Below, one piece after another: positions 13,739 through 27,446 of a stretch of DNA of 64,000 nt. Source of the stretch: an uncultured Acidobacteriota bacterium. GTDB taxonomy: Bacteria > Acidobacteriota > UBA6911. The DNA lies in the NCBI GenBank assembly GCA_964474425.1, contig CAYYTC010000006.1, positions 20,503 to 84,502 on the forward strand, in the 5' to 3' direction. The notes under the pieces were generated by a model. The model was not told where the DNA came from. It did no database searches and saw only the letters and a list, made by a program, of their open reading frames with translations. A program made the translations under genes and the position numbers. Position 1 is the stretch's first letter. Each line of letters starts with the position of its first letter.

Positions 13739-14317
13739 TTGACAGTGGAAAAGTTCAGCCCCTTTGTTCAAAGTGATGCTGAAAAGTGCATCGGCTGCAG
13801 GACTTGCGAGATTGCCTGTTCACTTGCCCATTCCCCGGATCCTGTGAAGACCGCCGGTGCGGCCGTCGGAGCATTCGTTCCCCGGCTGTTCGTGATGGTT
13901 ACGGCCGAAGTGGCGGCTCCTGTGCAATGCCATCACTGCGAAAACGCGCCCTGCCGCAATATTTGCCAGATGTCGGCTATCTCCCGGGTGGACGGCAGGA
14001 CGGTTGTCGATACCGGACGGTGCGTCGGCTGCAAGCTCTGTTTTATGGCGTGCCCCTTTGGGGCCATTGAATTTGTCCCCCAGCCCGACGGCACAAGGCC
14101 GATACATCTCGGAGCCTATTCCAGTCCGGAGGAATGGGCGAGCCGGCGCTGTCACCGCGCCAACAACTGCGACTTGTGCGTGAACCGCAAGGGTGGACCG
14201 GCCTGCGTCGAAACCTGTCCTCAAAAAGCGCTTGACCTTGTCAATCCGGCGGCGGAAAAAAACCGGCGCAATACTGAAGCGGCGCTGGACTTGCTGCTGC
14301 AGATGGGCGGAGATTAG
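13739..14317 (+). CDS. HycB/HydN-type 4x[4Fe-4S] ferredoxin
   Basis: 192 aa with four CxxCxxCxxxCP-type motifs (CIGCRTCEIAC, CHHCENAPCRNIC, CVGCKLCFMACP, CDLCVNRKGGPACVETCP). Confidence 0.8.
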   Translation: MTVEKFSPFVQSDAEKCIGCRTCEIACSLAHSPDPVKTAGAAVGAFVPRLFVMVTAEVAAPVQCHHCENAPCRNICQMSAISRVDGRTVVDTGRCVGCKLCFMACPFGAIEFVPQPDGTRPIHLGAYSSPEEWASRRCHRANNCDLCVNRKGGPACVETCPQKALDLVNPAAEKNRRNTEAALDLLLQMGGD

Positions 14318-14335
14318 CAAAAGCAAAAAGGAGTA

Positions 14336-15724
14336 GTGCGGGTGACTGAAGGATTTAGCCGGATTGATCAGGAGCTGTGCACCGGGTGCGACAACTGCAC
14401 CGCGACATGCCCCGCCGATGCCATCAGCGGTCAAAAGTATCAACCTCACGCGATTTCCGAGGAGCGTTGCGTGAGCTGCGGGCGATGCGTTCAAATCTGC
14501 AACGCTTACGACTCGATTTTCCAGAAATACCCGACACCGCGGGACCTGAGGCTGAAGCAACGGGACCTTCCGCCCGGATTCCCTGAGCCCCTGTTTGCGG
14601 CTTATGACCGGCGCTTTACCTCGAGTGTCAAGGCGGCCCTGGCCGATCCCGGCCTTGTGGTGATGGCTCAACTGGGACCGGCCGTATGCGGGCCCCTGGC
14701 CGAGGATTTCGGTTTGCCCGCGGGATCCCTGACGGAAGGGCGGGTCGTGGCAGCGCTGAAAAAGGCCGGCTTTCGGAAGGTATATAGCTTTTCGCTTCCG
14801 GCGGCGATGGCGGTGCTCGAAGAAGCGCATGAACTTGTCGAGCGGCTGCGGGAGGGCAGAATTTTGCCCGTTATCAACTCCTCGTGTCCGGCGGGAGTCA
14901 AGTTTATCGAGCAGTCCCACCCGGAGCTGATCCACTATATTGCGGGAAATAAATCCCCGCACCAGATAGCGGGCACGCTTGTCAAGTCGCGCGCTGCAAA
15001 AATGCTCCAGCTTTCTCCGGAAAGGATTTACAGCGTTTCCATCGGCCCCTGCAATTCCCGGAAATTTGAGGCAAGCCGGCCGGAGATGGCCTCCGGAGGA
15101 CGCCGGGACATCGATGCGGTATTGACGTCCCGGGATCTGGCTCATCTGATCAAGGACCTCGGAATCGACCTGTCTTCAATGGGTGAAGAAAGCCACGACC
15201 ATGAACTCCCCCCCCTGGTCGGGATGGATAGGGTCTACGGCATCCCGGGAGACATTACCGAAGCGGTCCTGAAGGCCGGTTACGGGCTTCTCGCGCCCTC
15301 GGCGGGACAGGCGCTGGAAGTGCAGTTTACCGAAACGGAAACCGAGGGAGTCCGCGCCGCCTCCGTAAAACTGGATGCATTCAGCGTAAAGGCAGTCGCC
15401 CTTACCGGGCTGCCGAATGCGGTCCCATTTCTCGATGCGATAAAGGCCGGCAAAAGCGACATCGCGTTTCTGGAAATCCTGGCATGCCCGATGGGCTGTG
15501 TCAGCGGCGGGGGACAGCCCAAGATCCTGCTGCCCCAGGATAAAACAGCCGCCTACCTGGAACGGGCGCGGCTCAACGGTGTCCCGGATGCCCGGGCCCT
15601 GCACAGTCTCGCGCGCAACGCTGAAGTGCAGAGGATCTATCGCGAGTGTTTTGGCAGACCCTGCGGCAACAAATCGAATCACGGCATTTATACGCAGTAT
15701 GTGGAGCGAAAACTGAGCCAATGA
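14336..15724 (+). CDS. [FeFe]-hydrogenase H-domain protein (M2-type: two N-terminal ferredoxin clusters) with non-canonical L1 motif
   Basis: L2 GPCNSRKFEA and L3 EILACPMGCVSGGGQP match the H-cluster signatures MPCxxKxxE and ExMACxxGCxxGGGQP. L1 reads NSSCPAG instead of TSCCPGW. N-terminus CTGCDNCTATCP and CVSCGRCVQIC. Confidence 0.8.
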   Translation: MRVTEGFSRIDQELCTGCDNCTATCPADAISGQKYQPHAISEERCVSCGRCVQICNAYDSIFQKYPTPRDLRLKQRDLPPGFPEPLFAAYDRRFTSSVKAALADPGLVVMAQLGPAVCGPLAEDFGLPAGSLTEGRVVAALKKAGFRKVYSFSLPAAMAVLEEAHELVERLREGRILPVINSSCPAGVKFIEQSHPELIHYIAGNKSPHQIAGTLVKSRAAKMLQLSPERIYSVSIGPCNSRKFEASRPEMASGGRRDIDAVLTSRDLAHLIKDLGIDLSSMGEESHDHELPPLVGMDRVYGIPGDITEAVLKAGYGLLAPSAGQALEVQFTETETEGVRAASVKLDAFSVKAVALTGLPNAVPFLDAIKAGKSDIAFLEILACPMGCVSGGGQPKILLPQDKTAAYLERARLNGVPDARALHSLARNAEVQRIYRECFGRPCGNKSNHGIYTQYVERKLSQ

Positions 15725-15770
15725 GGAATCGGGCGGTCCTTTTCGGAAGCGGATCGCCGCGGGGCGAAAC

Positions 15771-16250
15771 ATGGGATTTTTGCTGATAACACCGGAAGAC
15801 TGCACCAGTTGCCATTCGTGCGAACTGGCCTGTTCTCTGTTTCACGAAGAGGAGTTTAACCCTGCCCGCGCCCGCGTCGAGGTTCGGACGTGGGACGACA
15901 ACACGCACTCCGCCTCCGTAATGTGCCTGCAATGTGAAGAAGCCGGATGCATGGCCATCTGCCCGGCGGGAGCCATTACTGAAGACAAAACCACAGGGGC
16001 GCGCCTGGTCAACGGGTCGAAGTGCATCAAGTGCCGGATGTGCATCCAGATCTGTCCGTTCGGCAGCAATTTCTTCGACCTCAAGGGCCGCAAAATACTC
16101 AAATGCGACCTTTGCGACGGGGACCCGCAGTGCGCGAGGGTCTGCCCCTCGGGCGCCATCGTGTACGGGGAGCGGAATACGGCGAACACGGCGAAGCGGC
16201 AGCAGGCGGCCGCCAAGCTGAAAGTAATTTCCCGGGGAGCGAGAAGGTAA
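15771..16250 (+). CDS. 4x[4Fe-4S] ferredoxin (HycB-like)
   Basis: 159 aa, four Cys clusters (CTSCHSCELAC, CLQCEEAGCMAICP, CIKCRMCIQICP, CDLCDGDPQCARVCP). Confidence 0.75.
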   Translation: MGFLLITPEDCTSCHSCELACSLFHEEEFNPARARVEVRTWDDNTHSASVMCLQCEEAGCMAICPAGAITEDKTTGARLVNGSKCIKCRMCIQICPFGSNFFDLKGRKILKCDLCDGDPQCARVCPSGAIVYGERNTANTAKRQQAAAKLKVISRGARR

Positions 16251-17563
16251 TGTTCGGTTGGTGTGGACGATTGTTGCGGGTGAATCTGACGGACGGCGCC
16301 ATCGCCAGGGAATCCCTGGACCCTGAAGCCGCCAGAACCTTTCTTGGCGGGCGCGGGCTCGGGACCCGGCTGCATGCAAAAGAGGTCTCTTCCTCCTGCG
16401 AACCGCTGGGCGCCGCAAACCATCTGGTGTTTATCACCGGCCCTCTGACGGGCACCGTCGCGCCTAACGGCGGCCGCTACACGGTTGTCACCCGCGTGCC
16501 GCCCGAAGGCTCCATTGCCGCGGCCAGCATCAGCGGGAAATGGGGTTCGGAGCTCAAATTCGCCGGATTCGACGGGATCATCGTCGAGGGCAGAGCGGCT
16601 GAACCGTCCTATCTCTGGATTAAGGACGGCCATGCGGAATTGCGCTCCGCCGCGCGCGTTTGGGGCAAGCCGGTGAGGGAAACGACCGACCTGCTGGTCG
16701 CGGAAACGCACGAGAGATCGGTCGTTTCCTGTATCGGCCCCGCGGGCGAGAACGGCGTGAAAGGGTCGGTAATCGTCAGCGATTATTTTTCGGCTGCAGG
16801 CGGAGCGGGCGCGGGCCGGGTCATGGGCTCGAAGAATCTAAAGGCCATCGTCGTCTGCGGCACAATCGGGTTCCGTGCAGCCGATCACAGGCGGTTTCTC
16901 AAGCTGGCCACGGAATTCCGGACCTGGATGAAGACCAAACCGATTGCCGCAAGGGGCGTGCGTCTGCATGATTGCTTTCTCCGGGCGGACAGTGTCGCGT
17001 GGGATGCTGCGGCGCCCGAATCCAGGCCGGCCCGAACCAGGGGCTGCTTCGGTTGCGCAACTTCTTTTTCGTCTTTTACATTCGATGACAAAGTCAGGGC
17101 CCTGCCGCTGCTTGCGGGATCGCCGCCCGCCGAACTGGGCGAGAGGCTGAGGGAATACCGGCATTTTGCCGACCTGGGGCTGGATTTTGTCGCAGCCAAG
17201 ACCTCCCTGGCTTCTCTCGGCAAAGAGGCCGAAGCGGATCCGGCCGGGTTTGCCCGAAAGCTGGCCGCCGGCGAAATGGAAGGAACCGGAAGCATAAACG
17301 GCAATCGCGCGATGGACCGGGGAGCCTGTTTTGCTTCCGGTTACGCGGTTGCCCCGAATATCTCCCAGGGCAACGGACAGGACAGGGCGCTGAGCTGCCT
17401 GGTAAGCATTCTTGATTCCGCGGGATTGTGTCCGTTCCTTGCCGCCGGGATAGAAACAGGCACGATCGCCGGGCTGCTGAATGCGGCCACGGGAATCGAT
17501 TTTTCGCAGGAAGAAATCCTGCAGGCGGGGCAGCGCATCAGCCTGCCCGGCAACACCGACTGA
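16250..17563 (+). CDS. aldehyde:ferredoxin oxidoreductase (AOR) family protein, truncated (N-terminal AOR domain plus shortened C-terminal region)
   Basis: Start is TAATG-coupled to the preceding ferredoxin. N-domain MFGWCGRLLRVNLTDG...GGRGLG...LVFITGPLTG...KNLKAIVVCGT is typical AOR. C-terminus keeps CFGC and the DSAGLCPF (DSxGLCxF) cluster-ligand motif, but the protein is about 437 aa versus about 600 for canonical AORs. Confidence 0.65.
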   Translation: MFGWCGRLLRVNLTDGAIARESLDPEAARTFLGGRGLGTRLHAKEVSSSCEPLGAANHLVFITGPLTGTVAPNGGRYTVVTRVPPEGSIAAASISGKWGSELKFAGFDGIIVEGRAAEPSYLWIKDGHAELRSAARVWGKPVRETTDLLVAETHERSVVSCIGPAGENGVKGSVIVSDYFSAAGGAGAGRVMGSKNLKAIVVCGTIGFRAADHRRFLKLATEFRTWMKTKPIAARGVRLHDCFLRADSVAWDAAAPESRPARTRGCFGCATSFSSFTFDDKVRALPLLAGSPPAELGERLREYRHFADLGLDFVAAKTSLASLGKEAEADPAGFARKLAAGEMEGTGSINGNRAMDRGACFASGYAVAPNISQGNGQDRALSCLVSILDSAGLCPFLAAGIETGTIAGLLNAATGIDFSQEEILQAGQRISLPGNTD

Positions 17564-17628
17564 AGGCGTTGCCGAAGGGACTATGAAGAACACGTGCGCA
17601 ATGATACGCCGGTCGTTGATCTCCGCGC

Positions 17629-19038
17629 TTGGCATTCACAGGGGGTGAAGACTTGTTCCTGTTGCCTGTACTGTTAGCTGCGGCAGCAATGCTGGGTACC
17701 CTGGCCGTAGTGGTTCGCAGCTATGGCGCTGTCTGGTCCTTTGACCTGGGCACCGTGCCCTGGCTGGCCGGCCGGGAGGCCTTATTCGGCATCCGTATCG
17801 ACGGATTGAGTTCCCTGATGCTGCTGGCTATCACCGTAGTCGGCTTTCTGATCATCCTTTACTCCGGCGGATACGTGAGCGCCCGCAACCGCGAGCACCC
17901 GTCCAACGAAGGACAGGGACGGTACTATTTCTTCATGCTGCTCTTCGTTGCCGCGATGATCGGCCTGGTGATTTCGCCCAATTTCTTTCAGTTGTTCATT
18001 TTTTGGGAACTGACGACGCTCTGCTCCTGGGGTCTGATAGCCTTCTACCGCGACAGGGAAGCGCTGGGTTCCGCTTATAAGGCGCTGTTGATCACCCATG
18101 CCATGGGGCTCTTCCTCGAAGCTGGCATCATTCTCGTTTACGTCAACACCGGTTCATTCGCCTTTCCCGCCATCGAGCAGCTTTCCCCCGCGCTGAAGAC
18201 ACTGGCCGTGGTTTTCTTTGTGATCGCGGCGCTGGCGAAGGCCGCGCAGTTTCCGTTCTTCACGTGGCTTCCTACGGCCATGGCGGCCCCGACTCCGGCC
18301 AGCGCCTATCTTCATGCCGCGGCAATGGTCAAGGCCGGCATCTATCTGATAGCCCGGCTGCTGATCAGTATGAGCGTGTTCCCGCCCAAGGTCGGTGTTG
18401 TTCTCGGCGCCCTGGCGATGGTGACCATGCTGACCGCCGTGCTGCTCTACTTCGTTCAGGACGACTTGAAAAGGCTTCTTGCCTACTCCACCATTGCAAA
18501 TCTGGGCTACATGGTCCTGGGTCTTTCGCTCGGCAGCCTGGGATCCAGCCTGGCTTTGCGTGGCGGCCTGCTTCATCTCATCGGGCACTCATTCACCAAA
18601 AGCCTGCTTTTCCTGGCGGTCGGCGCGATATCGTTCGCGACCGGGACGCGCAGGATCTCAACGCTGAGCGGCCTCAACAAGAGAATGCCGCTGACTTCTT
18701 TGGCCTTCGTCCTCGGGGCTCTCGCCATCAGCGGCGTCCCTCCCTTCAACATGTTCTGGAGCAAGTTTTTCATAATTGCCGGCGCTTTTCAGCTGCATAC
18801 GGGTTGGGGGTGGACGCTCGGGCTGCTGGCACTGGTGGAAAGCGTCGCGGGATTTGCATGGTTTCTGCATGTCGTGCACAAGGTTGTTTTCGGCGCCCCG
18901 GCCCCGGCAGCCGAAGGAGCGCAGGATCCGCCCGCCGTTATGGCGATACCCTTGCTGGCGCTGATGGGCCTAATCCTGCTTTCGACCGTTTTCGCCTTGC
19001 CGATTATTGACCGGCTGGTCGGAGGATTGGGACGATGA
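17629..19038 (+). CDS. hydrogenase-4 antiporter-like membrane subunit (HyfD/NuoM/MnhD-like)
   Basis: 469 aa polytopic protein of the NuoL/M/N fold. Start codon uncertain. Confidence 0.8.
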   Translation: MAFTGGEDLFLLPVLLAAAAMLGTLAVVVRSYGAVWSFDLGTVPWLAGREALFGIRIDGLSSLMLLAITVVGFLIILYSGGYVSARNREHPSNEGQGRYYFFMLLFVAAMIGLVISPNFFQLFIFWELTTLCSWGLIAFYRDREALGSAYKALLITHAMGLFLEAGIILVYVNTGSFAFPAIEQLSPALKTLAVVFFVIAALAKAAQFPFFTWLPTAMAAPTPASAYLHAAAMVKAGIYLIARLLISMSVFPPKVGVVLGALAMVTMLTAVLLYFVQDDLKRLLAYSTIANLGYMVLGLSLGSLGSSLALRGGLLHLIGHSFTKSLLFLAVGAISFATGTRRISTLSGLNKRMPLTSLAFVLGALAISGVPPFNMFWSKFFIIAGAFQLHTGWGWTLGLLALVESVAGFAWFLHVVHKVVFGAPAPAAEGAQDPPAVMAIPLLALMGLILLSTVFALPIIDRLVGGLGR

Positions 19039-21062
19039 CCGCAATGCAAGTATTCGCCGGCTCCATGGCTGTTCTGGCCGCGACCTCCGTTCTTACGCTG
19101 CTGACGGCAGATCGCCGAAAAGTGGCCGGCGGGATTAATTTTGCCGGCACCGCCTGTGCGGCTCTGGGGATGCTGTGGCTCGCGGCCAGGGCGCTGTTTG
19201 CGGGCCCGCTGGAATTCGGGTATGGAAGCGTCCGTGTTCTGGGCCTGAGCGCACAGCTGGATTTTCGCATTGACGGCCTGAGCGCCCTTTTTCTCTCGAT
19301 TATCGCAATCCTTGTCACGGGCTCCGCTCTCTACAGCATCGGCTATCTCGATCACTACCGCCACGAAGGGCTGCGAAGGTACTATTTCCCCTTTCCGTTG
19401 TTCATGGCCGGCATGCTGGCGGTGGTGACCGCTGCCGACTGGTTCTGGTTCCTGGTTTTCTGGGAGGTCATGACGCTGACGTCCTATTTCCTGGTGGTCT
19501 TCGAAAACGACAACAAGGAAAACCTTTCGGCCGGATTCCTATATTTTTTCATGACGCATCTCACGTCGGCCGGGCTGATGGTCGCGGTGATGTTCCTGGC
19601 GAACAGGTCCGGCTCATTTGCCTTTGCGGCGCTTCCGGACCTGTTTAACAACCTTGCCTACACGAACCCGGCCGGCCTTCACCTCCTCCTGCTCCTCTTC
19701 TTCATCGCATTCGGGACCAAGGCGGGGATGTATCCCCTCGGTGTCTGGCTGCCCGCCGCGCATCCCGCGGCTCCGGCCAGCGTCAGCGCACTGCTCTCGG
19801 GCGTCATGATCAAAATCGGGGTCTACGGAATGCTGCGGGTCTTCGTCTGGATGCTCCCGGTAGTTTCGGCGGCCGTCCTCTGGGGAACCGTTATCGCCAC
19901 CTTCGGGATTATTTCCATGGCGGTCGGGACACTGCGCGCGCTGGGTGAACACGACTGCAAAAGGCTGCTGGCCCAGAGCAGCATCGGCCAGATGGGATAC
20001 ATCCTGCTCGGTCTGGGGCTCGGCATGGTTTTCATGTCCCGCAGCCCGGTTTTCGGCGTGATCGCGCTGATCGGCTGCCTCTACCACATTGTCAATCATG
20101 CCTGCTTCAAATCCCTGCTCTTTTTCAATACCGGTTCACTGTTGTTCCGGACAGGCACGCGGAACCTGGATAAGATGGGCGGCATGATACAGCTGATGCC
20201 GGTGGCCGGGGCATGCGCCATCGTTGGAGCGCTTTCCATCGCCGGAGTCCCCCCTTTCAACGGCTTCGTCAGCAAATGGCTTCTCTACCAGAGCGCCATC
20301 TTTGGGAAGCCTGCATCCGTTTTCATCGTGTACGCCGTCATCGCAATTTTCATGAGCACGGTTACCCTGGCCTATTTCATCAAGTACCTGGGCACCGCCT
20401 ATCTCGGCACGATGCCGGAACGTTTTGCCGGCAGCCCCCACGGATCTCCCCGGTCGATGGAAATCGTGCAGCTCGTGCTCGCGGCCGGATGCCTGATGCT
20501 TGGGATCTACCCGGCGACCGTGGTTCTGGTCCTGCTGGGAGTCCTGGAACCTGCCCTGAGCATAGCCAATTCCCGTCTGGCCCAGGGGGCGCTCGGCGCT
20601 TTGCCGTGGCTCGGGATGAAGCTGGACCTGAATTCTGTAAGCACGGCCGCTGCGGGCCCCGCCATCATACTGGCGGCGCTCGCCGCCTGTGCAGGTATTG
20701 CGTATCTGATATATCGCAGCGTCCAGGTGGAGAGCCGGCCCGCATCCATCTGGAATTGCGGGGAAGTTGTTTCCGACGAAGCGGTGCGCTATCGCGCCAG
20801 CAGTTTTTACAAGCCGTTCCGGAACCTGATCAGCCCTGTGTACCGGAAAATCCGGTGGCCCCGGATTTCTCCGCCTCAATCCTTCGCGCGCAGCCTGGAC
20901 CTGGACCGCTGGTTGTACTTTCCAATAGGTTCTGCCTTTGTCCGCATCGGCAGGGCTTTCAGCAGGATTCATAACGGCGTGCCTCAGTTCTACCTCCTAT
21001 GGCAGGTGGTGGGGCTCGTCCTTTCCGTTATGTTTGTTTTCTGGTTGATGGGAGGAAAATAA
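19035..21062 (+). CDS. hydrogenase-4/formate hydrogenlyase antiporter-like membrane subunit (HyfB/HycC, NuoL-like)
   Basis: 675 aa, about 16 TM, conserved WLPxAHxAPxPVSALL motif. ATGA overlap with the upstream gene. Confidence 0.85.
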   Translation: MTAMQVFAGSMAVLAATSVLTLLTADRRKVAGGINFAGTACAALGMLWLAARALFAGPLEFGYGSVRVLGLSAQLDFRIDGLSALFLSIIAILVTGSALYSIGYLDHYRHEGLRRYYFPFPLFMAGMLAVVTAADWFWFLVFWEVMTLTSYFLVVFENDNKENLSAGFLYFFMTHLTSAGLMVAVMFLANRSGSFAFAALPDLFNNLAYTNPAGLHLLLLLFFIAFGTKAGMYPLGVWLPAAHPAAPASVSALLSGVMIKIGVYGMLRVFVWMLPVVSAAVLWGTVIATFGIISMAVGTLRALGEHDCKRLLAQSSIGQMGYILLGLGLGMVFMSRSPVFGVIALIGCLYHIVNHACFKSLLFFNTGSLLFRTGTRNLDKMGGMIQLMPVAGACAIVGALSIAGVPPFNGFVSKWLLYQSAIFGKPASVFIVYAVIAIFMSTVTLAYFIKYLGTAYLGTMPERFAGSPHGSPRSMEIVQLVLAAGCLMLGIYPATVVLVLLGVLEPALSIANSRLAQGALGALPWLGMKLDLNSVSTAAAGPAIILAALAACAGIAYLIYRSVQVESRPASIWNCGEVVSDEAVRYRASSFYKPFRNLISPVYRKIRWPRISPPQSFARSLDLDRWLYFPIGSAFVRIGRAFSRIHNGVPQFYLLWQVVGLVLSVMFVFWLMGGK

Positions 21063-22760
21063 ATGACGACTTCGGCGGATCTGATTGCAGCGGTACAGGA
21101 ACGGTTTCCCGGAGCCCTGGTATCCAGCGAGCAGCCGAGCCGGGACCGGCTGTTTTTGACGGTAACACGGGAAAGCATGCCGCGGGTTGCGGACTACCTG
21201 TTCAATTCTGCGGGGGCAAGACTCATCCTGTCCTCGGGGACGGACAAGAGTCCGATCAACGGGACTTACGAGGTGACCTACATTTTCTGCCTGGATCAGG
21301 ACAATCTGATCCTCGCCGTCAAGGAAATCGTGGACCCCGCCGACCCGCGCATACCATCGCTGACCAACATCATTCCGGGGGCGGACTGGCACGAGCGCGA
21401 GATGTACGACATGATGGGCATCGTTCCCCAGGGGCATCCGGATCCGCGGCGCCTGGTGGTTTCCGACGACTGGCCTGAAGATGTCTACCCGCTGCGCAAG
21501 GAGGTTCCGTACAACTTCAAGCCGCCGCGCGTTGCGGAAGTCAAGCCGCCGATGCGTGAGCCCAGGGAGGGTGAGAAGCAGGCTACGATCCTGAATGTCG
21601 GTCCTTTTTTCCCGACGCTGGAAGAGCCGGCCTATTTCCGCCTGTACGTGGAGGGGGAGAAGATTGTCGGCAGCGATTATAGGGGCTTTTTCGCCCACCG
21701 CGGCATTGAAAAGCTGACCGAAACCGTGATGGACTACAACCAGGTGCCCTTTATCGCGGAGCGCATCTGCGGAATCTGCGGTTTTGTTCACAGCGCCACT
21801 TACTGCATGGCGGTGGAGCAGGCGGCCGGGATTGAAACCCCGCCGCGCGCAAAGTATATCCGCTCCATCATGCTGGAGCTGGAGCGCGTGCACAGCCATC
21901 TGCTATGGCTGGGCCTGGCCGCGCACTATCTCGGCTTCGATACCGTTCTGATGCAGGCCTGGAGAATCCGCGAACCGATCATGTGGCTGACCGAGGAAAT
22001 TACCGGCAACCGCAAAACCTTCGGAATGAACCTGCCGGGCGGAGTGCGCCGCGATATTGATGCCGCCACGGCGGAAAAAATACTCAAGACGCTCGAAAAG
22101 GTGGACTCGGAGACCCGGGAGTTGATCGAAGCCGCGGTCGAGGACAACTCGCTGAAAATGCGCCTGGAACATGTGGGCGTTCTCAGCAAGGAGGATGCCC
22201 GCAAGGTTTGCGTGGTGGGGCCCACCGCCCGGGCTTCCGGCGTGGCGATCGATGTCCGGAAGGACCGCCCCTATCTGGCCTATCCCGACCTGGATTTCAA
22301 AGTCGCGGTTCAGGAAGGCTGCGACATATGGGCCCGGACGCTGGTGCGCGCCGAAGAGGTCTTCAGCGCAATTTCCCTGATGCGGCAGATGATCGAAAAG
22401 ATGCCCTCCGGGGAAATCATGGCTGATGTCGGTCCGATTGCGCCGTGGCGCGAGGGTATCGCGACCGTTGAAGCCCCGCGCGGCGAGTGTTGCCACTACG
22501 TGATAACGGGGCCGGACAACCGGCCGTACCGCTGGCGCGTCCGCGCCTCGACCTATCCCCAGCTCCAGTCCATTCCCAGGATGCTGGACAACATGAGCGT
22601 GGCCGATTTCCCCATCATCGTGGGCAGCATCGATCCCTGCTTTTCCTGCACGGAGAGGGTTATCACGGTGGATGCAAGAAGCCGGAAGATCCGGACCTAT
22701 TCCGGGGAAGAGCTTTTGGCCTTGAGCCGAAGAAACAGCGGACAAGGGAGACGTTCGTGA
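21063..22760 (+). CDS. group-4 [NiFe]-hydrogenase large subunit (HycE/HyfG type, NuoC-NuoD fusion)
   Basis: N-terminal Ni-Fe ligand motif RICGICGFVHS and C-terminal DPCFSCTERV. 565 aa with a NuoC-like N-terminal segment. Confidence 0.9.
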   Translation: MTTSADLIAAVQERFPGALVSSEQPSRDRLFLTVTRESMPRVADYLFNSAGARLILSSGTDKSPINGTYEVTYIFCLDQDNLILAVKEIVDPADPRIPSLTNIIPGADWHEREMYDMMGIVPQGHPDPRRLVVSDDWPEDVYPLRKEVPYNFKPPRVAEVKPPMREPREGEKQATILNVGPFFPTLEEPAYFRLYVEGEKIVGSDYRGFFAHRGIEKLTETVMDYNQVPFIAERICGICGFVHSATYCMAVEQAAGIETPPRAKYIRSIMLELERVHSHLLWLGLAAHYLGFDTVLMQAWRIREPIMWLTEEITGNRKTFGMNLPGGVRRDIDAATAEKILKTLEKVDSETRELIEAAVEDNSLKMRLEHVGVLSKEDARKVCVVGPTARASGVAIDVRKDRPYLAYPDLDFKVAVQEGCDIWARTLVRAEEVFSAISLMRQMIEKMPSGEIMADVGPIAPWREGIATVEAPRGECCHYVITGPDNRPYRWRVRASTYPQLQSIPRMLDNMSVADFPIIVGSIDPCFSCTERVITVDARSRKIRTYSGEELLALSRRNSGQGRRS

Positions 22761-23659
22761 CAAACATCGCTATCGGCGTCTTCAATATACTGCTGGTCCT
22801 CCTTGCCGCGCCTCTGCTGGACGGCGTTTTGCGAAAGGTGCGGGCTTTGATTCATTCGCGGCAGGGGCCTCCCGTGTTGCAGACCTATTACGACCTGGCC
22901 AAGTTGATGGTGAAAGAGGACCAGAGCGCGGTCAACAATTTCCTGTTTAATGCCGCGCCGATTGTTTGCCTGGCTTCCGTCCTGCTGGCCGCCCTTTTTA
23001 TTCCCATGGGCGGGGTGGTTCCGCTGGGATTTGCCGGGGACGCGCTGGTGCTGATGTACATCCTGACGCTGGCCCCGATCTTCCTGTGCCTGGGCGGTAT
23101 GGCTTCGGGCAGCCCTTACGCATATGTCGGCGCGAGCCGGGAAATAATGATGCTGATGGTGGTCGAGCCGGTTCTTGCGATCACGCTGATTGCCACGGCG
23201 GTCAAGGCCAACTCGCTGCTGCTTGCGAACTGCATCGAACGGTACGTGTCCGGCCCCCCGGATATTTCTCTGATTATCTGCGCCATTGCCTTCTTTCTCG
23301 CCCTCCAGCCGGAAGTCGCCAAGGTTCCTTTCGACCTGGCCGAAGCCGAACAGGAAATCATGGAGGGCCCGCTGGTCGAATATTCGGGCCGCAAGCTGGC
23401 GCTGCTCAAGTGGTCGATGTATTCCAAGCAGATTGTATTTATCGCCCTGCTGGCCGGAGTCTTCCTCCCCTGGCCCAGGACGGGATTTTTGCCGTTGAGC
23501 GTCGTATTCACGCTTTTGAAGGTCCTGGGGATCGCCGTGCTGGTGGAGGTGATCGCCCTGGTGTTCCCGCGGCTTAAGATCAACCAGGCGATCCGCTATT
23601 TCGCCATAGTGATCGCCGTCGCCTTGACGGGTTTGATACTTGCCGTCATGGGTCTATAA
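22757..23659 (+). CDS. formate hydrogenlyase membrane subunit HycD/HyfC (NuoH-like)
   Basis: GTG start overlapping the hycE stop (GTGA). N-terminus ...LLDGVLRKVRALIHSRQGPPVLQTYYDLAKL is a classic NuoH/HycD signature. Confidence 0.85.
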   Translation: MTNIAIGVFNILLVLLAAPLLDGVLRKVRALIHSRQGPPVLQTYYDLAKLMVKEDQSAVNNFLFNAAPIVCLASVLLAALFIPMGGVVPLGFAGDALVLMYILTLAPIFLCLGGMASGSPYAYVGASREIMMLMVVEPVLAITLIATAVKANSLLLANCIERYVSGPPDISLIICAIAFFLALQPEVAKVPFDLAEAEQEIMEGPLVEYSGRKLALLKWSMYSKQIVFIALLAGVFLPWPRTGFLPLSVVFTLLKVLGIAVLVEVIALVFPRLKINQAIRYFAIVIAVALTGLILAVMGL

Positions 23660-23677: not shown

Positions 23678-24205
23678 ATGATACCGCTTTTGAAAGAAGC
23701 CTGGATTTGCCTGCGGGCCGGCCGCGTGACGCTGCCGTATCCGCTGAAACCGACGAAAGCTCCGCCTCGATTCCGCGGGCGCCCGAGCATCGATGGAGAC
23801 AAATGCATCGGGTGCGGCGCCTGCGCGGAAGTGTGTCCTCCACGGTTGATTACGGTCACCGATGAGGGCGCTACCCGTCGCATTTCCATGGATTATTCCC
23901 GGTGCACCTACTGCGCGCGCTGTCAGGAAATATGTCCGGTCCAGAGCGCCAGGCTCACCGAGGATTTTGAGGACGCCACAGCCGACCGCGCCGACTTGAC
24001 GGTCGCAGTGGAATTGGAACTCGCTCCGTGCAGGAACTGCGGCACGCCGTTCATCACCCGGCGAATGCTGGCCAAGCTGTCCGATGAATTCTCCCCTCCC
24101 TGGATGAAGGAAAAGCTTGAAGCTCCGGACTGGTTCCAGCTGTGCCCGGATTGCCGGCTCGAAAAAACAGGGGCCGCCATAGACAGGAGCGTCAAACATG
24201 AGTAG
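23678..24205 (+). CDS. formate hydrogenlyase 2x[4Fe-4S] subunit HycF/HyfH (NuoI-like)
   Basis: CIGCGACAEVCP and CTYCARCQEICP motifs, 175 aa. Confidence 0.85.
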   Translation: MIPLLKEAWICLRAGRVTLPYPLKPTKAPPRFRGRPSIDGDKCIGCGACAEVCPPRLITVTDEGATRRISMDYSRCTYCARCQEICPVQSARLTEDFEDATADRADLTVAVELELAPCRNCGTPFITRRMLAKLSDEFSPPWMKEKLEAPDWFQLCPDCRLEKTGAAIDRSVKHE

Positions 24206-24863
24206 CTATGCGATCATGTACATCAGCCTGCTCATGATTGTGACTTCGCTGGTGGCGATGGAGTGGCGCAGGCTTCCGGAAGCCGTTCACACATACCAGG
24301 TCCAATCGGTGCTGATTGCGCTGATCTTCGCCATTTATGCCTATTCGCTCAAAAATCCCGCGTTGTACTACTGGAGCGCCACCGCGCTGGTCAGCAAGGG
24401 GATCGTGGTTCCGTGGCTGCTTCGACGCTACGTTTTGAAAGTGCACGCAAAGGAAACCCCGCCGCTGCTGAGCCTGCTGCCGTCCCAGGCTTTCGCGATC
24501 CTGGTTTCGCTGCTGGCATTCGGCTGGGCCTTTAAGCATCACGCGGACCTGGTGCTCCTGCCCGGACTGGCCGGGGAGCCCTACCGCATGAATTCCGCGG
24601 TGGCCGCGACGGTGCTCGCCATCGGCTTTTTCGCCTTGTTGACGAGGAAGGACGCCTTCAAGATCGTCATCGGCCTGTGCCTGCTGGAGAACGGCGTTCA
24701 TATGAGCCTGATCAGCCTGGCTCCGTCCATCCCGGAAACAGCCCTGATCGGCGTGGTGACCGACGTGGTTGTCTCGGTCCTTATGCTTCTTTATATCGTC
24801 ACCGGGGTTTATCGATCGGCGGGTTCCCTCGACACATCCAACATGGCGAAGTTGCGTGGCTGA
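24198..24863 (+). CDS. hydrogenase-4 membrane subunit HyfE-like
   Basis: 221 aa, about 6 TM, position and size equivalent to HyfE between HycF and HyfF. Confidence 0.7.
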   Translation: MSSYAIMYISLLMIVTSLVAMEWRRLPEAVHTYQVQSVLIALIFAIYAYSLKNPALYYWSATALVSKGIVVPWLLRRYVLKVHAKETPPLLSLLPSQAFAILVSLLAFGWAFKHHADLVLLPGLAGEPYRMNSAVAATVLAIGFFALLTRKDAFKIVIGLCLLENGVHMSLISLAPSIPETALIGVVTDVVVSVLMLLYIVTGVYRSAGSLDTSNMAKLRG

Positions 24864-24878: not shown

Positions 24879-26483
24879 GTGACAGAATCGATGCTATTAA
24901 TCTGGCTGTTCCTGATACCCGCAATAGCGGCGCTAGCGGAATATGCCCTGGGCAGAAAATATCCGGCTTCGGCCGGCAGGATCGCGATCCTGGGATCGAC
25001 GGCGGCATTCGGCGTTTCCGTGGCGATGGTCTGCCGGCTGCTGGGCGGCGATCGCCTGGTCGCAATGGGACACCAGCTGCACGCCGACGCTTTCGCGGGC
25101 TTTGTGGCCTTGGTCGTTTCCTTCGTGGGGTGGGCCACGACGATCTTCGCCTATCCATACCTGCGCCATGAAGTGAAGGAAGGGAAAGTCGCCGTCGAGC
25201 GCCTGCCGCTTTACTATGTCTGGAGCATGGTGTTCCTCAGCACGATGACGGCGGTGACCGTCAACAACAACATCATCATGATGTATGTGCTCGTCGAGGC
25301 AACGACCCTGGCATCCGCTCTCCTGGTGACCTTTTACTGGAAGCCTGAATCCCTGGAGGCCGGCTACAAATACCTGCTGCTGTGTTCGGTAGGCATTACG
25401 ATCGGCCTGTTGGGCTGCGTGATCATTTACGCTTCGGCCGTCCCCCTGGTTGGCGGCGCCAATGCGATGCTGATAACCGAAATCGCCAAGGTCGCCGGAA
25501 AGTTCCCGCCTATGGTCGTGCTCGTGGCGGGAGTCCTCCTGATCATCGGTTTTGGATCCAAGGCGGGTTTTGTACCCTTCCATGCGTGGCTGCCCGACGC
25601 TCATTCGCAATCCCCCAGCCCGGTCAGCGCCCTGCTGTCCGGTGTGACCATAAAGGTTGCGATTTACGCCATCGCACGGATAGCAACGCTTTTTTACCCG
25701 GGTCACAGCGCGCTGGGAACCTTCGGGATTATCCTGGGGGCGGTCACGATGCTGGCGGGGATAGTGATTGCCTATCAGCAGACCGACCTGAAGCGCATGC
25801 TGGCCTACAGCAGCGTCAGCCAGATGGGCTATATAATACTCGGGCTCAGCATCGGCACCTACCTCGGCTTCTACGGCGCCATCTATCACCTGCTCAACCA
25901 CGCGGTCAACAAGGCGATGCTCTTCCTGTGCAGCGGCATACTGCTGTATTCCTTCGGCACAACAGACATGCAGCTATTGGGCGCGAAGAAGCACCGCCGT
26001 CTGACGGCGGTCTGTTTTTTCATCGGTGCGCTCGGGATCGGGGGCATGCCGCCCCTGAATGGGTTCTGGAGCAAATTCGGAATTTACGTGGCGGCGGCCC
26101 AGGCGCACCTGTGGTGGGCCTTTGGCATCGCCCTATTCACCAGCCTGCTGACGCTCGCGGTTTTGATCCGGGCCGGCGCCCGCATGTTTCTGCAGGACAG
26201 CCACGCCGTCCACGCCTACGAATTGCCTTTTCAGCCTGCGGCAATTGCCGCCCCAACCGCGGCCGGCGCGATAACGGCCATGCAGGATGCTCACGCGTCG
26301 GGCGGGGCAGGGCCCGAAAGAGCGCATCCCTGCCCGGTGGCCATGAATGCCGTGATTGTGGCCATGACGCTGCTGATCCTCGCTACGGGCCTGAATCTGG
26401 GATTCGTGAACCGGCTGATCGATTTATCAGTCAAAGCTCTGCTGCAGCAGATGGCGGGAGGTTCGGTCGATGTCACTCTATAA
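24879..26483 (+). CDS. hydrogenase-4 antiporter-like membrane subunit HyfF (NuoN/L-like)
   Basis: 534 aa, GTG start, conserved HAWLPDAHSQSPSPVSALLSG motif. Confidence 0.8.
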   Translation: MTESMLLIWLFLIPAIAALAEYALGRKYPASAGRIAILGSTAAFGVSVAMVCRLLGGDRLVAMGHQLHADAFAGFVALVVSFVGWATTIFAYPYLRHEVKEGKVAVERLPLYYVWSMVFLSTMTAVTVNNNIIMMYVLVEATTLASALLVTFYWKPESLEAGYKYLLLCSVGITIGLLGCVIIYASAVPLVGGANAMLITEIAKVAGKFPPMVVLVAGVLLIIGFGSKAGFVPFHAWLPDAHSQSPSPVSALLSGVTIKVAIYAIARIATLFYPGHSALGTFGIILGAVTMLAGIVIAYQQTDLKRMLAYSSVSQMGYIILGLSIGTYLGFYGAIYHLLNHAVNKAMLFLCSGILLYSFGTTDMQLLGAKKHRRLTAVCFFIGALGIGGMPPLNGFWSKFGIYVAAAQAHLWWAFGIALFTSLLTLAVLIRAGARMFLQDSHAVHAYELPFQPAAIAAPTAAGAITAMQDAHASGGAGPERAHPCPVAMNAVIVAMTLLILATGLNLGFVNRLIDLSVKALLQQMAGGSVDVTL

Positions 26484-26967
26484 AACGCTGGTCGAGAAAT
26501 TTTTCAGGCGCTCCTTATGGGTCTACCATGCGAATGCAGGCGGATGCAACGGGTGCGACATCGAGGAGATCAACGCATTCACTCCTTACTACGATGCGGA
26601 GCGGTTCGGGCTGAAGCTGGTGGGCTCGCCGCGGCATGCCGATATCCTGCTGGTTTCAGGGCCTGTGACGCGCAACGTGGAATCACGGCTGAAGCTTCTT
26701 TATGAAGCGGTGCCGAATCCGAAGGTGGTGATCGCGTGCGGGTCTTGTGCCGTGGGCGGCGGGCTGTGGTTTGATTCGTATCACGTGCTCGGGGGGTGCG
26801 ATAAAGTCATCCCGGTGGATTTCTATATCCCGGGGTGCCCTCCCAGGCCGGAAGCGATCCTTTGGGGCGCAGCCGTTGCCATGGGCCTGGTCAAGGGGAA
26901 GGCGCAGCCTTACCGCTACCGCCAGGAGGATGCGGAGGCCGAGGCGAAGGCGAAGCTGGCTTCATGA
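26470..26967 (+). CDS. group-4 [NiFe]-hydrogenase small subunit HycG/HyfI (NuoB-like)
   Basis: Proximal-cluster ligands CNGCDIE, GSCAVGGG, PGCPP. 165 aa. Confidence 0.9.
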   Translation: MSLYKTLVEKFFRRSLWVYHANAGGCNGCDIEEINAFTPYYDAERFGLKLVGSPRHADILLVSGPVTRNVESRLKLLYEAVPNPKVVIACGSCAVGGGLWFDSYHVLGGCDKVIPVDFYIPGCPPRPEAILWGAAVAMGLVKGKAQPYRYRQEDAEAEAKAKLAS

Positions 26968-27446
26968 TGCGCGAAGCGGCGGAGTTGGAAAAGGGACTGA
27001 AGCAGCGGCTGAAAGGCAGGGTGCTGCTGGTAGGCGCCGGCAACACGCTTCGCGGCGACGATGGGGCAGGTCCGGCGGTTGTGTCCCTGTTGGAAGGCAG
27101 AGTGACGGCGAGCCTGCTCGATGCCGGGGAAGCGCCGGAAAACTATTCGGGCAGGATCCTGGCTGAACAGCCGGATACGGTTGTCCTGATTGATGCGGCC
27201 GATTTTGGGGCGGCGCCGGGGGATCTGGCCATTCTGGAAGCGGAAGATATGGCGAAGGTGGGCGTGTCCACGCATCGGATCCCTTTGGAGGTTTTGTTCC
27301 GCTACATAAGGGAAAATAGCGGAGCGGACATGTTTGCGCTCGGGATACAGCCGGCCGGGATCGGATTTGGAGAATCCCTGAGCCCCGCCGTATCAAATTC
27401 GGTAAAGGCGCTGGCGGAGATCTTGCGGCGGCTGCTCCCGGCCTAA
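26964..27446 (+). CDS. hydrogenase maturation endopeptidase HycI-type
   Basis: LLVGAGNTLRGDDGAGP motif. ATGA overlap with hycG. Confidence 0.8.
   Translation: MMREAAELEKGLKQRLKGRVLLVGAGNTLRGDDGAGPAVVSLLEGRVTASLLDAGEAPENYSGRILAEQPDTVVLIDAADFGAAPGDLAILEAEDMAKVGVSTHRIPLEVLFRYIRENSGADMFALGIQPAGIGFGESLSPAVSNSVKALAEILRRLLPA

What the first reader, a model, noticed from the sequence alone, without database searches (positions are those of the whole stretch)
16250..17563. Mini-AOR: an aldehyde:ferredoxin oxidoreductase-family protein about 160 residues shorter than canonical enzymes, embedded in the hydrogenase operon
The N-terminal about 210 aa is an unmistakable AOR N-domain. The C-terminal part keeps a CFGC pair and the DSxGLCxF motif that carries the fourth [4Fe-4S] cysteine. 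But the spacing between them is about 140 aa instead of about 200, and the third Cys of the CxxCxxxC motif is missing. The tungsto/molybdopterin-binding domains therefore look incomplete. A cofactor-less or cluster-only AOR scaffold acting as a ferredoxin-docking or electron-transfer subunit would be new. No alternative reading frame continues the homology, so a recent frameshift seems unlikely but is not excluded.
Basis: partly seen in the sequence, partly recalled or inferred. Interest (0 to 1): 0.6.

Follow-up and report, generated by a model that had tools for sequence, protein, structure and literature searches.

The report
Stripped-down AOR subunit in formate hydrogenlyase
The short "aldehyde oxidoreductase" is a real, conserved gene whose product has lost its catalytic half and probably serves as a non-catalytic iron-sulfur or scaffold partner of a wire-like ferredoxin inside an unusually elaborate formate-to-hydrogen enzyme complex.

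Summary
Window 16250-17563 (+) encodes a 437-aa AOR/WOR-family protein with a complete N-domain and only fragments of domains 2 and 3. It is not a pseudogene: no other frame carries AOR homology. About 55 sequence clusters of 388-481 aa share the same architecture. All 8 orthologous loci examined have the same gene order.

Compared with full-length AORs, the family has lost the second-shell catalytic residues (E313 and Y427 deleted, H448 hydrophobic). It has also lost R182, K450 and the third cluster cysteine (C295 is Phe in 53/54). It keeps C288, C291, C494 and C447. In deeper branches, including Rhodospirillum rubrum, R76 and D489 are also lost. R. rubrum additionally lacks two of the cysteines.

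The upstream, translationally coupled gene is an AorA/WorS-type four-cluster polyferredoxin. The two genes before that are orthologues of HDCR HycB4 and HydA2. Downstream lie a complete Hyf [NiFe]-hydrogenase, HycI, a HydN-like ferredoxin and a selenocysteine FdhF.

Best reading: a degenerate, probably pterin-free WorL subunit that partners a WorS wire in an FHL-2/HDCR hybrid complex. Cofactor content is inferred, not shown. I found no description of it in the searchable literature. I rate it a new variant of a known kind.

The parts
16250..17563 (+). mini-AOR (degenerate WorL), 437 aa
   Evidence: ORF and translation. Pfam AFOR_N complete plus a fragment of AFOR_C. AlphaFold2 pLDDT 89.4 and pTM 0.92. 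Foldseek TM 0.74 (query-normalised) to 9mqx_D and 1aor_A.
16265..16864 (+). AOR N-terminal beta-sandwich domain (residues 6-205)
   Evidence: PF02730 positions 1-199 of 199, E 2.5e-69. Aligns 1:1 with P. furiosus AOR residues 1-239.
17045..17068 (+). C266-F-G-C269-A-T-S-F273: remnant of CxxCxxxC with the third Cys replaced by Phe
   Evidence: C266 and C269 are invariant in 54/54. F273 is present in 53/54, against Cys in 18/18 full-length AORs.
17171..17185 (+). D308-L-G-L-D312, remnant of the first pterin motif DxxGLD
   Evidence: Aligned to NELGMD of full-length AORs. The first position (Pf D338, Asn in the 18 bacterial full-length AORs used) is hydrophobic in the family.
17318..17344 (+). 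R357-G-A-C360-F-A-S-G-Y365, homologue of the P. furiosus R444-GG-C447-H448-I-K450-N-Y452 segment
   Evidence: Profile alignment to 1aor. C360 is present in 54/54. H448 is M/I/V/F/L in most members (never His) and K/R450 is A/G/S.
17414..17434 (+). D389-S-A-G-L-C394-P395, second pterin motif with the fourth cluster cysteine
   Evidence: Aligned to P. furiosus 489-495. C394 and P395 are present in 54/54; canonical AORs have Leu after the Cys.
15771..16250 (+). AorA/WorS-type polyferredoxin, 159 aa, 16 Cys (four [4Fe-4S] motifs), conserved C-terminal helix-like tail
   Evidence: phmmer gives 8c0z_C (AorA) E 1.7e-34 end to end and 9mqx_E (WorS) E 1.1e-31. Cys count. The tail is conserved in 7 loci.
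14336..15724 (+). HDCR HydA2-like [FeFe]-hydrogenase, 462 aa
   Evidence: 7qv7_D E 1.4e-124, residues 5-459 on 5-459. All four H-cluster Cys are present, but TSCCP reads SSCP.
13739..14317 (+). HDCR HycB4-like polyferredoxin
   Evidence: 7qv7_B E 3.8e-43. 17 Cys.
17629..19038 (+). HyfD-like antiporter subunit
   Evidence: NCBIfam 'hydrogenase 4 subunit D', 554.7 bits, above the curated cut-off.
19035..21062 (+). HyfB-like antiporter subunit
   Evidence: Best NCBIfam match is 'hydrogenase 4 subunit B', E 1.6e-149, 499 bits, below the 667-bit cut-off.
21063..22760 (+). HyfG/HycE-like [NiFe] large subunit (fused 30-kDa and 49-kDa domains)
   Evidence: Pfam. Ni ligand motifs RICGICGFVH and DPCFSC are present.
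22757..23659 (+). HyfC/HycD (NuoH-like)
   Evidence: Pfam NADHdh. GTG start overlaps the hyfG stop; 300 aa as in the orthologues.
23678..24205 (+). HyfH/HycF 2x[4Fe-4S] subunit
   Evidence: Best NCBIfam matches are 'formate hydrogenlyase complex iron-sulfur subunit' (E 9.5e-39) and 'hydrogenase 4 subunit H'; both score below their curated cut-offs.
24198..24863 (+). HyfE (NuoK-like)
   Evidence: Pfam Oxidored_q2.
24879..26483 (+). HyfF
   Evidence: Best NCBIfam match is 'hydrogenase 4 subunit F', E 9.6e-98, 328 bits, below the 610-bit cut-off.
26470..26967 (+). HyfI/HycG small subunit
   Evidence: Pfam Oxidored_q6. NCBIfam NuoB family.
26964..27446 (+). HycI maturation protease
   Evidence: Pfam HycI. 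ATG overlaps the hyfI stop.
27522..28049 (+). HydN-like polyferredoxin
   Evidence: Best NCBIfam match is HydN, E 2e-61, 206.7 bits, below the 260-bit cut-off. 16 Cys.
28120..30264 (+). FdhF formate dehydrogenase with in-frame TGA (selenocysteine) at 28549-28551
   Evidence: Translation reads HCARV*HAPS. Pfam Molybdopterin and Molydop_binding on the C-terminal part.

Best explanation
The gene encodes a degenerate large subunit (WorL/AorB type) of the tungsten-oxidoreductase family. It keeps three things: the N-terminal beta-sandwich, the loop that carries the [4Fe-4S] cluster FS0, and the core helices of domains 2 and 3. It has lost the aldehyde-oxidising active site and, most probably, the tungsten-bis-pyranopterin cofactor.

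It is made in a fixed ratio with an AorA/WorS-type four-cluster polyferredoxin encoded just upstream, and most likely forms a WorLS-like heterodimer with it. That pair belongs to a larger machine. The machine contains a membrane-bound Hyf [NiFe]-hydrogenase, a selenocysteine formate dehydrogenase with its HydN-like ferredoxin, and an HDCR-type HycB4/HydA2 module.

In this machine the mini-AOR does not turn over a substrate. It stabilises, caps or positions the WorS electron wire. In most lineages it also holds one side-branch Fe-S cluster.

Shown: the anatomy, the conservation, the synteny, and the identities of the partner and neighbours. Inferred: absence of pterin, presence of the cluster, heterodimer formation, and the scaffold or wire role.
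For: 1. Real and constrained.
- Roughly 55 of the best 120 clusters listed (90% identity) are 388-481 aa and cover 96-100% of the query.
- About 10 clusters at 50% identity were found among 1.8 billion representatives.
- No homology appears in other frames.
- The AlphaFold2 model is compact and confident and superposes on AOR structures.

2. Active site gone. The review PMC12096430 names T243, E313, Y427 and H448 as the conserved second shell.
- The E311-E313 loop and the Y427 segment are deleted.
- H448 is hydrophobic in most members and never His.
- T243 is Ser or Cys.

3. Pterin ligands eroded. The AorB pterin contacts are R75, G94, R181, D361, D504, I508, C509 and V510 (PMC10413684).
- The family fixes S at R181/R182, a hydrophobic residue at D361/D338, and Pro at V510/L495.
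- K/R450 becomes small.
- In the deeper branches P0139, P0140 and P0141, R76 becomes H/S/Q and D489 becomes E.

4. Cluster cysteines. C288, C291, C494 and C447 are invariant in 54/54, while C295 is Phe.

5. The R. rubrum member sits in the same operon but lacks C291, C447, R76 and D489. The protein is therefore kept even without a possible cubane.

6. The partner is AorA/WorS end to end, including the region of the C-terminal helix that drives AorA filament formation. The one-base stop/start overlap is found in the window and in 4 further loci; L086 has a 4-base overlap and L087 a longer called overlap. About 45 of 80 full-length AOR loci have the same worS-worL order.

7. Synteny is identical in 8/8 loci.

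8. It is the fastest-evolving protein of the operon (35-41% identity against 47-83% for the others in L086 and L087), as expected for a subunit freed from catalytic constraint.

9. FdhF is present, so formate oxidation needs no other catalyst.
Against: - No metal or cofactor data exist.
- In the window's own subfamily R76, D389 (Pf D489), the G-L-C of the second motif and D308-x-G-L-D are all kept. One pyranopterin could therefore still bind.
- Four invariant cysteines would also fit a remodelled metal site with a function of its own.
- A side-branch cluster has no obvious role in through-conduction.
- Heterodimer and filament formation are extrapolated from AaAOR and AmWOR1, not predicted or observed here.
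- I could not obtain model coordinates, so the geometry of the four cysteines is unknown.
Confidence: 0.55

Rival explanations
1. It is still a metallo-pterin enzyme. A minimal AOR keeps at least the proximal pyranopterin (with W or Mo) and catalyses a new reaction on a small substrate. Candidates are H2, formate/CO2 or a small aldehyde. The electrons pass through WorS to Hyf.
For: The window subfamily retains R76, D389-S-A-G-L-C394, D308-L-G-L-D312 and Y365. The N-domain that carries the Mg/phosphate contacts is as conserved within the family (68%) as among full-length AORs. Full-length AaAOR is reported to oxidise H2 at its W cofactor (PMC12096430). A full-length WorLS sits directly next to a group-4 hydrogenase in L007, so AOR-to-hydrogenase coupling does exist.
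Against: Three of the four conserved second-shell residues (E313, Y427, H448) are lost, and T243 is only conservatively replaced by Ser in most members. R182 and K/R450 are lost family-wide. R76 and D489 are not conserved in deeper branches. The R. rubrum member lacks nearly every cofactor ligand yet keeps the same operon position. About 165 residues that wall the cofactor and the substrate channel are missing.
Confidence: 0.15
2. It is an assembly or cofactor-handling factor rather than a permanent subunit. For example, it could be a pterin- or Fe-S-binding chaperone for FdhF or for the polyferredoxins.
For: A partly preserved pterin pocket without catalytic residues. The operon has no dedicated FdhD/FdhE-like gene within the stretch examined.
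Against: Translational coupling to a WorS-type subunit and the canonical worS-worL order point to a stable heterodimer. Chaperones of this family are unknown. R. rubrum lacks the putative pterin ligands.
Confidence: 0.1
3. It is a decaying remnant with no function: a pseudogene-like leftover of an ancestral AOR input module.
For: It is the most divergent protein of the operon. Cofactor ligands are lost progressively along the family. A plausible ancestor state, full-length WorLS next to a group-4 hydrogenase, exists in L007.
Against: An intact ORF of constant length in about 55 clusters, found in Acidobacteriota-labelled MAGs and in R. rubrum. No frameshifts. 58% mean column identity, with invariant Cys, Phe and Pro signature residues. 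Conserved translational coupling. A confident compact fold.
Confidence: 0.05
4. It is a redox- or metabolite-sensing regulatory subunit that gates electron flow between the FdhF, HydA2 and Hyf exits.
For: A side-branch cluster on a wire that connects two hydrogenases and a formate dehydrogenase. The HydA2-like partner also carries changes near its H-cluster (Cys to Ser at the proton-transfer position; M353 and K358 positions altered).
Against: No sensor domain and no precedent in the family. The R. rubrum variant has no cluster ligands left.
Confidence: 0.05

Closest known systems
AorB/WorL of nanowire-forming tungsten oxidoreductases (Aromatoleum aromaticum AorABC, PDB 8C0Z; Acetomicrobium mobile WOR1, PDB 9MQX)
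   Same: Best sequence and fold matches. The same worS-worL gene order with an AorA/WorS-type four-cluster partner that aligns end to end, including the C-terminal helix region. Three of the four FS0 cysteines are kept.
   Different: About 165 residues shorter. C295 is Phe. The second-shell catalytic residues are lost, as are R182 and K450. There is no AorC or WorABC partner. Instead the pair is embedded in an hyf/fdhF/hydA2 operon.
Pyrococcus furiosus AOR (PDB 1AOR), the archetype Class I WOR
   Same: The N-domain aligns 1-239, and residues 437-533 align to mini-AOR 351-434. The DSAGLC motif is shared.
   Different: PfAOR is a 605-aa stand-alone W enzyme that uses free ferredoxin. The mini-AOR lacks E313, Y427, H448, C295 and the C-terminal ~70 residues.
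C-terminal domain of NuoG/Nqo3 of respiratory complex I (my own knowledge, not tested here)
   Same: A conceptual parallel: a catalytic pterin-enzyme fold is kept as a non-catalytic, cofactor-free part of a complex-I-related machine, with at most an off-pathway Fe-S cluster.
   Different: A different fold family (Mo-bisPGD/FdhF-like, not AOR). NuoG is fused to Fe-S domains, whereas this is a separate subunit.
Hydrogen-dependent CO2 reductase (HDCR) of Thermoanaerobacter kivui (PDB 7QV7)
   Same: The two genes upstream of worS are HycB4-like (E 3.8e-43) and HydA2-like (E 1.4e-124), and FdhF is in the operon.
   Different: HDCR has no AOR-family subunit and no membrane hydrogenase genes. The HydA2-like protein here has Ser in place of the first Cys of the TSCCP motif.
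E. coli formate hydrogenlyase-2 (hyf operon) and FHL-1 (PDB 7Z0S)
   Same: HyfB, C, D, E, F, G, H and I homologues, HycI and Sec-FdhF are present. The orthologous loci also carry FocA and an FhlA/HyfR-like sigma-54 activator.
   Different: E. coli has no WorS/WorL and no HydA2/HycB4 genes in or near hyf (my own knowledge).
E. coli YdhV/YdhY (Class V WOR)
   Same: An AOR-family protein with a polyferredoxin partner, linked to membrane components. The only NCBIfam AOR model that hits the N-domain strongly is the 703-position aldehyde ferredoxin oxidoreductase model PRK09849; that this model represents YdhV is my assumption.
   Different: YdhV is full length (about 700 aa), its partner carries a Tat signal, and it faces the periplasm (PMC13328260). 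The mini-AOR is closest to the AOR sensu stricto clade instead.

Membership tests
AOR/WOR family large subunit (WorL) | N-terminal AFOR_N beta-sandwich domain | tested here: met
   PF02730 positions 1-199 of 199, E 2.5e-69.
AOR/WOR family large subunit (WorL) | Complete domains 2 and 3 (AFOR_C, 385 profile positions) | tested here: not met
   Only profile positions 228-315 match. Six deletions, including the C-terminal ~70 aa, map on the alignment with full-length AORs. 49 columns that are invariant in full-length AORs are deleted.
AOR/WOR family large subunit (WorL) | Four-cysteine FS0 motif CxxCxxxC...C (stated to occur in 99% of the family, PMC10413684) | tested here: not met
   C266, C269 and C394 are present. 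The third Cys is Phe in 53/54 members.
AOR/WOR family large subunit (WorL) | Pyranopterin-contact residues (AorB R75, G94, R181, D361, D504, I508, C509, V510) | tested here: inconclusive
   The window protein keeps R76, D389, L393 and C394. It changes S95, S181, A307 and P395. R76 and D489 are not conserved in the deeper branches.
AOR/WOR family large subunit (WorL) | Second-shell catalytic residues T243, E313, Y427, H448 | tested here: not met
   E313 and Y427 are deleted. H448 is Phe here and never His in the family. T243 is Cys here and Ser in most members.
AOR/WOR family large subunit (WorL) | Bound W (or Mo) bis-pyranopterin | not testable with these tools
   Needs metal and pterin analysis of the purified protein.
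AOR/WOR family large subunit (WorL) | Overall AOR fold | tested here: met
   Foldseek finds 9mqx_D, 1aor_A, 9g7j_A and 8c0z_A at E 1e-29 to 1e-34, query-normalised TM 0.73-0.75.
WorLS-type (Class II-IV) WOR | WorS/AorA four-[4Fe-4S] small subunit encoded directly upstream | tested here: met
   8c0z_C E 1.7e-34 and 9mqx_E E 1.1e-31. 16 Cys. Stop/start overlap.
WorLS-type (Class II-IV) WOR | Filament ('nanowire') formation through the WorS C-terminal helix | not testable with these tools
   The tail aligns to the AorA helix region and is conserved. Oligomerisation was not modelled.
Formate hydrogenlyase-2 (Hyf) complex | Group-4 [NiFe] large subunit with both CxxC Ni-binding motifs, plus the HycI protease | tested here: met
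   RICGICGFVH and DPCFSC are present. HycI by Pfam.
Formate hydrogenlyase-2 (Hyf) complex | HyfB/C/D/E/F membrane subunits and HyfH/HyfI | tested here: met
   NCBIfam and Pfam assignments. Only the HyfD match exceeds its curated cut-off; the others are best matches below cut-off.
Formate hydrogenlyase-2 (Hyf) complex | FdhH-type formate dehydrogenase; formate channel and FhlA-type regulator | tested here: met
   Sec-FdhF at 28120-30264. FocA and a GAF-sigma54 regulator occur in L002, L003, L086 and L087. Neither was detected among the window ORFs submitted to Pfam.
HDCR | HydA2 [FeFe]-hydrogenase and HycB3/HycB4 polyferredoxins together with FdhF | tested here: met
   7qv7_D E 1.4e-124 and 7qv7_B E 3.8e-43. 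HydA2-like carries SSCP instead of TSCCP.
Pseudogene | Frameshift or stop that interrupts a full-length homologue | tested here: not met
   tblastn with 6 full-length AORs. The short length is conserved in 54 family members.

The most novel reading that the evidence does not exclude
The mini-AOR/WorS pair is the adaptor that plugs a soluble HDCR-type nanowire (FdhF, HydA2 and HycB-type ferredoxins) onto a membrane-bound, ion-translocating Hyf hydrogenase. A tungsten-enzyme fold would thus have been recycled as a cofactor-free structural subunit. This mirrors how complex I kept a dead formate-dehydrogenase domain in NuoG. It would also give a genetic handle on how HDCR-like wires can be anchored to the membrane, testable in Rhodospirillum rubrum.
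Probability: 0.25. Interest if true: 0.8.

Novelty: new variant of a known kind. Interest (0 to 1): 0.6.

Why it matters
Every class in the 2026 classification of tungsten oxidoreductases is built on a full, cofactor-bearing large subunit (PMC13328260). A conserved, shortened and probably pterin-free member built into a formate hydrogenlyase would be a sixth kind of arrangement. It would also be a clear case of a catalytic metalloenzyme fold turned into a scaffold or electron-transfer part.

The operon itself joins three systems usually treated separately: Hyf/FHL-2, HDCR and WorLS wires. It does so in uncultured, apparently Acidobacteriota-affiliated organisms sampled in environmental metagenomes, and also in the genetically tractable Rhodospirillum rubrum. 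The questions below can therefore be tested at the bench:
- What does the subunit bind?
- Is the complex one supercomplex?
- Why does it have two hydrogenases?

Tried and rejected
1. Frameshifted pseudogene. Rejected by tblastn in all frames and by the conserved short family.

2. Mini-AOR as the formate- or aldehyde-oxidising input module of the hydrogenase. Set aside, because a Sec-FdhF with its own HydN-like ferredoxin is in the operon and the AOR catalytic residues are gone.

3. C360 as a newly acquired fourth cluster ligand. Not supported as 'new'. It is the homologue of P. furiosus C447, which is conserved in canonical AORs where it is not one of the four named cluster ligands. It may still have taken over that role. 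Its joint loss with C269 in R. rubrum is suggestive, but it is a single case.

4. The genome-contig scan with the single protein was swamped by the universal AOR motif VMGSKNLK. It returned only full-length AORs and no family member. It was still useful for worS-worL statistics and for L007.

5. Exact-sequence look-ups for the taxonomy of the window failed. Affiliation with Acidobacteriota rests on named homologues (P0010, P0139) and on shared flanking synteny with L001.

6. The afdb50 fold library was unavailable.

7. Ka/Ks was not attempted, because the orthologues are too diverged (35-68% amino-acid identity) for a meaningful Ks.

8. Model coordinates are not returned, so Cys-Cys distances and pocket volume could not be measured.

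9. Literature searches for AOR together with hyf, FHL, Acidobacteria or R. rubrum found nothing about this protein.
Full report
**The feature**

Window 16250-17563 (+) is an intact ORF of 437 codons plus stop. Its ATG shares one base with the TAA of the upstream gene (TAATG), and a GGAG-type ribosome-binding site precedes it. Pfam finds a complete AFOR_N domain at residues 6-205 (E 2.5e-69). Only a fragment of AFOR_C is found, at residues 356-430, corresponding to profile positions 228-315 of 385. Against solved structures, residues 1-241 align one-to-one with residues 1-239/241 of AORs. A second short stretch carrying DSAGLC aligns with P. furiosus 483-530. With a family profile the second stretch extends to Pf 437-533.

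**Not a pseudogene**

Six full-length AORs were searched by tblastn against 15501-18200. Significant matches appear only in the gene's own frame. Nothing in any frame or downstream matches the missing segments. A search of 5.8 billion proteins returned about 55 clusters of 388-481 aa that cover 96-100% of the query at 44-68% identity. After these there is a sharp step to 600-aa AORs that cover only 62%. A profile search of 1.8 billion representatives found about ten clusters at the 50% level. AlphaFold2 gives a compact, confident model (pLDDT 89.4, pTM 0.92). The model superposes on AOR structures with a query-normalised TM of 0.73-0.75.

**What is kept and what is lost**

I aligned 54 family members with 18 full-length AORs. 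P. furiosus numbering comes. The lists of functional residues come from two papers (PMC12096430; PMC10413684).

Kept:
- Almost the whole N-domain (68% mean identity within the family, the same as among the full-length enzymes).
- R76.
- C266, C269 and C394, equivalent to Pf C288, C291 and C494 (54/54).
- C360, equivalent to Pf C447 (54/54). This residue is also invariant in the canonical RGGCH motif.
- Y365, equivalent to Y452.
- D308-L-G-L-D and D389-S-A-G-L-C.

Fixed changes:
- C295 to Phe (53/54).
- N93 to Ser.
- R182 to Ser.
- R186 to small residues or Lys.
- D/N338 to hydrophobic.
- H448 to Met/Ile/Val/Phe/Leu in most members, never His.
- K/R450 to Ala/Gly/Ser.
- L495 to Pro (54/54).

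Deleted:
- About 22 residues before the CxxC.
- The E311-Y312-E313 loop.
- The ELPAYDPR segment that carries Y427.
- Further helices of domains 2 and 3.
- The last ~70 residues.

In all, 49 columns that are invariant in full-length AORs are absent. So three of the four second-shell catalytic residues, and about half of the listed pterin contacts, are gone.

In the deeper branches of the family, R76 (H/S/Q) and D489 (E) also vary. The signature Phe and Pro and the cysteines persist. One member, Rhodospirillum rubrum ABC21118.1, additionally lacks C291 and C447. It nonetheless occupies exactly the same place in the same operon.

**Neighbours**

- The gene immediately upstream (15771-16250) has 16 cysteines in four ferredoxin motifs. 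It aligns end to end with AorA of the A. aromaticum AOR (8c0z_C, E 1.7e-34) and with WorS of the A. mobile WOR1 (9mqx_E, E 1.1e-31). The alignment includes the region of the C-terminal helix that was shown to drive AorA filament formation. That tail is conserved in seven loci.
- About 45 of 80 full-length AOR loci fetched carry a WorS-like gene in the same position.
- The two genes before it are orthologues of the HDCR subunits HycB4 (7qv7_B, E 3.8e-43) and HydA2 (7qv7_D, E 1.4e-124, full length).
- Downstream come HyfD, HyfB, HyfG (both Ni-binding CxxC motifs present), HyfC, HyfH, HyfE, HyfF, HyfI and HycI. Then follow a HydN-like ferredoxin and an FdhF with an in-frame TGA at 28549-28551 in the motif HCARV-U-HAPS.

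**Conservation of context**

Eight loci that carry family members were examined: L001; L002/L003 (the same protein in two samples); the P0041 contig; L084; L085; L086; L087; and L089 (R. rubrum). All have the order HycB4-like, HydA2-like, (FocA), WorS-like, mini-AOR, Hyf genes. L084 is a fragmented assembly in which the first two genes appear only as partial tblastn matches. Several loci add an FhlA/HyfR-like GAF-sigma54 activator, a formate channel and a Sec-split FdhF. This is therefore a formate hydrogenlyase system, and FdhF supplies the formate-oxidising activity.

Between loci the mini-AOR is the most divergent protein of the operon. In L087 it is 35% identical, against 49-83% for the others.

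**Interpretation**

The simplest account is a WorL subunit that has been relieved of catalysis. The catalytic residues and the positively charged residues R182 and K450 are replaced in a fixed, family-wide manner. I take these to be phosphate contacts from my own knowledge of the P. furiosus structure. The walls of the substrate channel are deleted. Ligands that remain in the window's subfamily are lost in others. One lineage has lost even the cluster ligands without losing the gene.

What is never lost is the fold, the length, the N-domain and the coupling to WorS. I therefore propose a non-catalytic partner of the WorS wire. It would carry one side-branch [4Fe-4S] (or 3-Cys) cluster in most lineages, and it would stabilise, cap or position that wire within an FHL-2/HDCR hybrid complex.

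The identity of the fourth ligand is open. It could be C360, a neighbouring conserved Ser274/Ser275, or none. The absence of pterin is inferred, not shown. A retained proximal pyranopterin in the window's subfamily cannot be excluded.

**Evolutionary hint**

L007, from a Deltaproteobacteria MAG, carries worS plus a full-length 604-aa AOR. These are followed directly by NuoL/M-like, NuoB-like, ferredoxin and Ech-type [NiFe] large-subunit genes. An AOR input module wired to a group-4 hydrogenase therefore exists in full-length form. The mini-AOR may be what remains of such a module after FdhF and HDCR parts took over. This would parallel the dead molybdopterin domain of NuoG in complex I (my own knowledge).

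**Novelty**

Full-text searches found no description of an AOR-family protein in hyf/FHL operons, in Acidobacteria or in R. rubrum. The 2026 five-class scheme for the family has no truncated or hydrogenlyase-linked class, and it stresses conservation of the cofactor content of WorL. Databases label these proteins only as 'AOR N-terminal domain-containing protein'.

I rate it a new variant of a known kind, of moderate to high interest. The R. rubrum member makes it experimentally approachable. It was the only cultured-organism member named among the hits, and the only one found by a search seeded with it.

Noticed in passing
window 28120-30264 (TGA at 28549-28551): A formate dehydrogenase H gene is read through an in-frame TGA in the motif HCARV-U-HAPS, so it is a selenoprotein. 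A stable hairpin is predicted in the 60 nt that start at the TGA (-23.8 kcal/mol), a candidate SECIS element.
   Followed up: partly
window 14336-15724; L001 8101-9474, L003 7004-8500, L085 8036-9427, L086 7061-8458, L087 4456-5853: The HDCR HydA2 orthologue keeps all four H-cluster cysteines. However, the TSCCP motif, whose first Cys I take to be the proton-transfer Cys (CpI C299), reads SSCP/ASCP/SSCA in all six loci. The positions I map to CpI M353 and K358 are also mostly changed. Its activity or catalytic bias may be unusual.
   Followed up: partly
L007 9270-18540 (MAG Deltaproteobacteria, JARRRH010000041.1): worS plus a full-length 604-aa AOR lie directly upstream of NuoL/M-like, NuoB-like, ferredoxin and Ech-type [NiFe] large-subunit genes. 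This is a candidate aldehyde-driven, energy-converting hydrogenase.
   Followed up: partly
L089 10001-11284 (Rhodospirillum rubrum ATCC 11170, ABC21118.1): The only cultured-organism member found. It has the same operon, with hypF/C/D/E next to it. It lacks C269, C360, R76 and D389, so it cannot bind a normal cubane or pterin. Its nearest relatives are only 42% identical, which suggests horizontal acquisition.
   Followed up: partly
L088 726-2048 (P0144); also P0149, P0267: Other, unrelated short AOR-family proteins exist. P0144 (440 aa) lacks the whole CxxCxxxC region and the C-terminal ~70 residues, and it also has a WorS-like gene upstream. P0267 (465 aa) keeps CxxCxxxC. Truncation of this fold seems to have happened more than once.
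   Followed up: partly
L002/L003 8534-9403, L086 8508-9467, L087 5948-6814, L089 8495-9427: A FocA-type formate channel gene sits between the hydA2-like and worS-like genes in five loci. It is absent at that position in the window, L001, L085 and the P0041 contig.
   Followed up: no
window 13739-30264 compared with L086 and L087: Across loci the mini-AOR is the least conserved protein of the operon (35-41% identity). FdhF (83%) and HyfI (76-82%) are the most conserved.
   Followed up: yes
window 11449-13200: A 583-aa protein with a papain-like protease domain, fibronectin-III repeats and a BACON-like domain lies just upstream of the operon, on the same strand. It is probably unrelated.
   Followed up: no
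window 10323-11081 (-) and L001 3850-4611 (-): The same double-zinc-ribbon protein flanks the operon in the window and in a 6.9-Mb genome (L001). L001 has a LigD gene between the two. The shared flank suggests that the two organisms are related.
   Followed up: no
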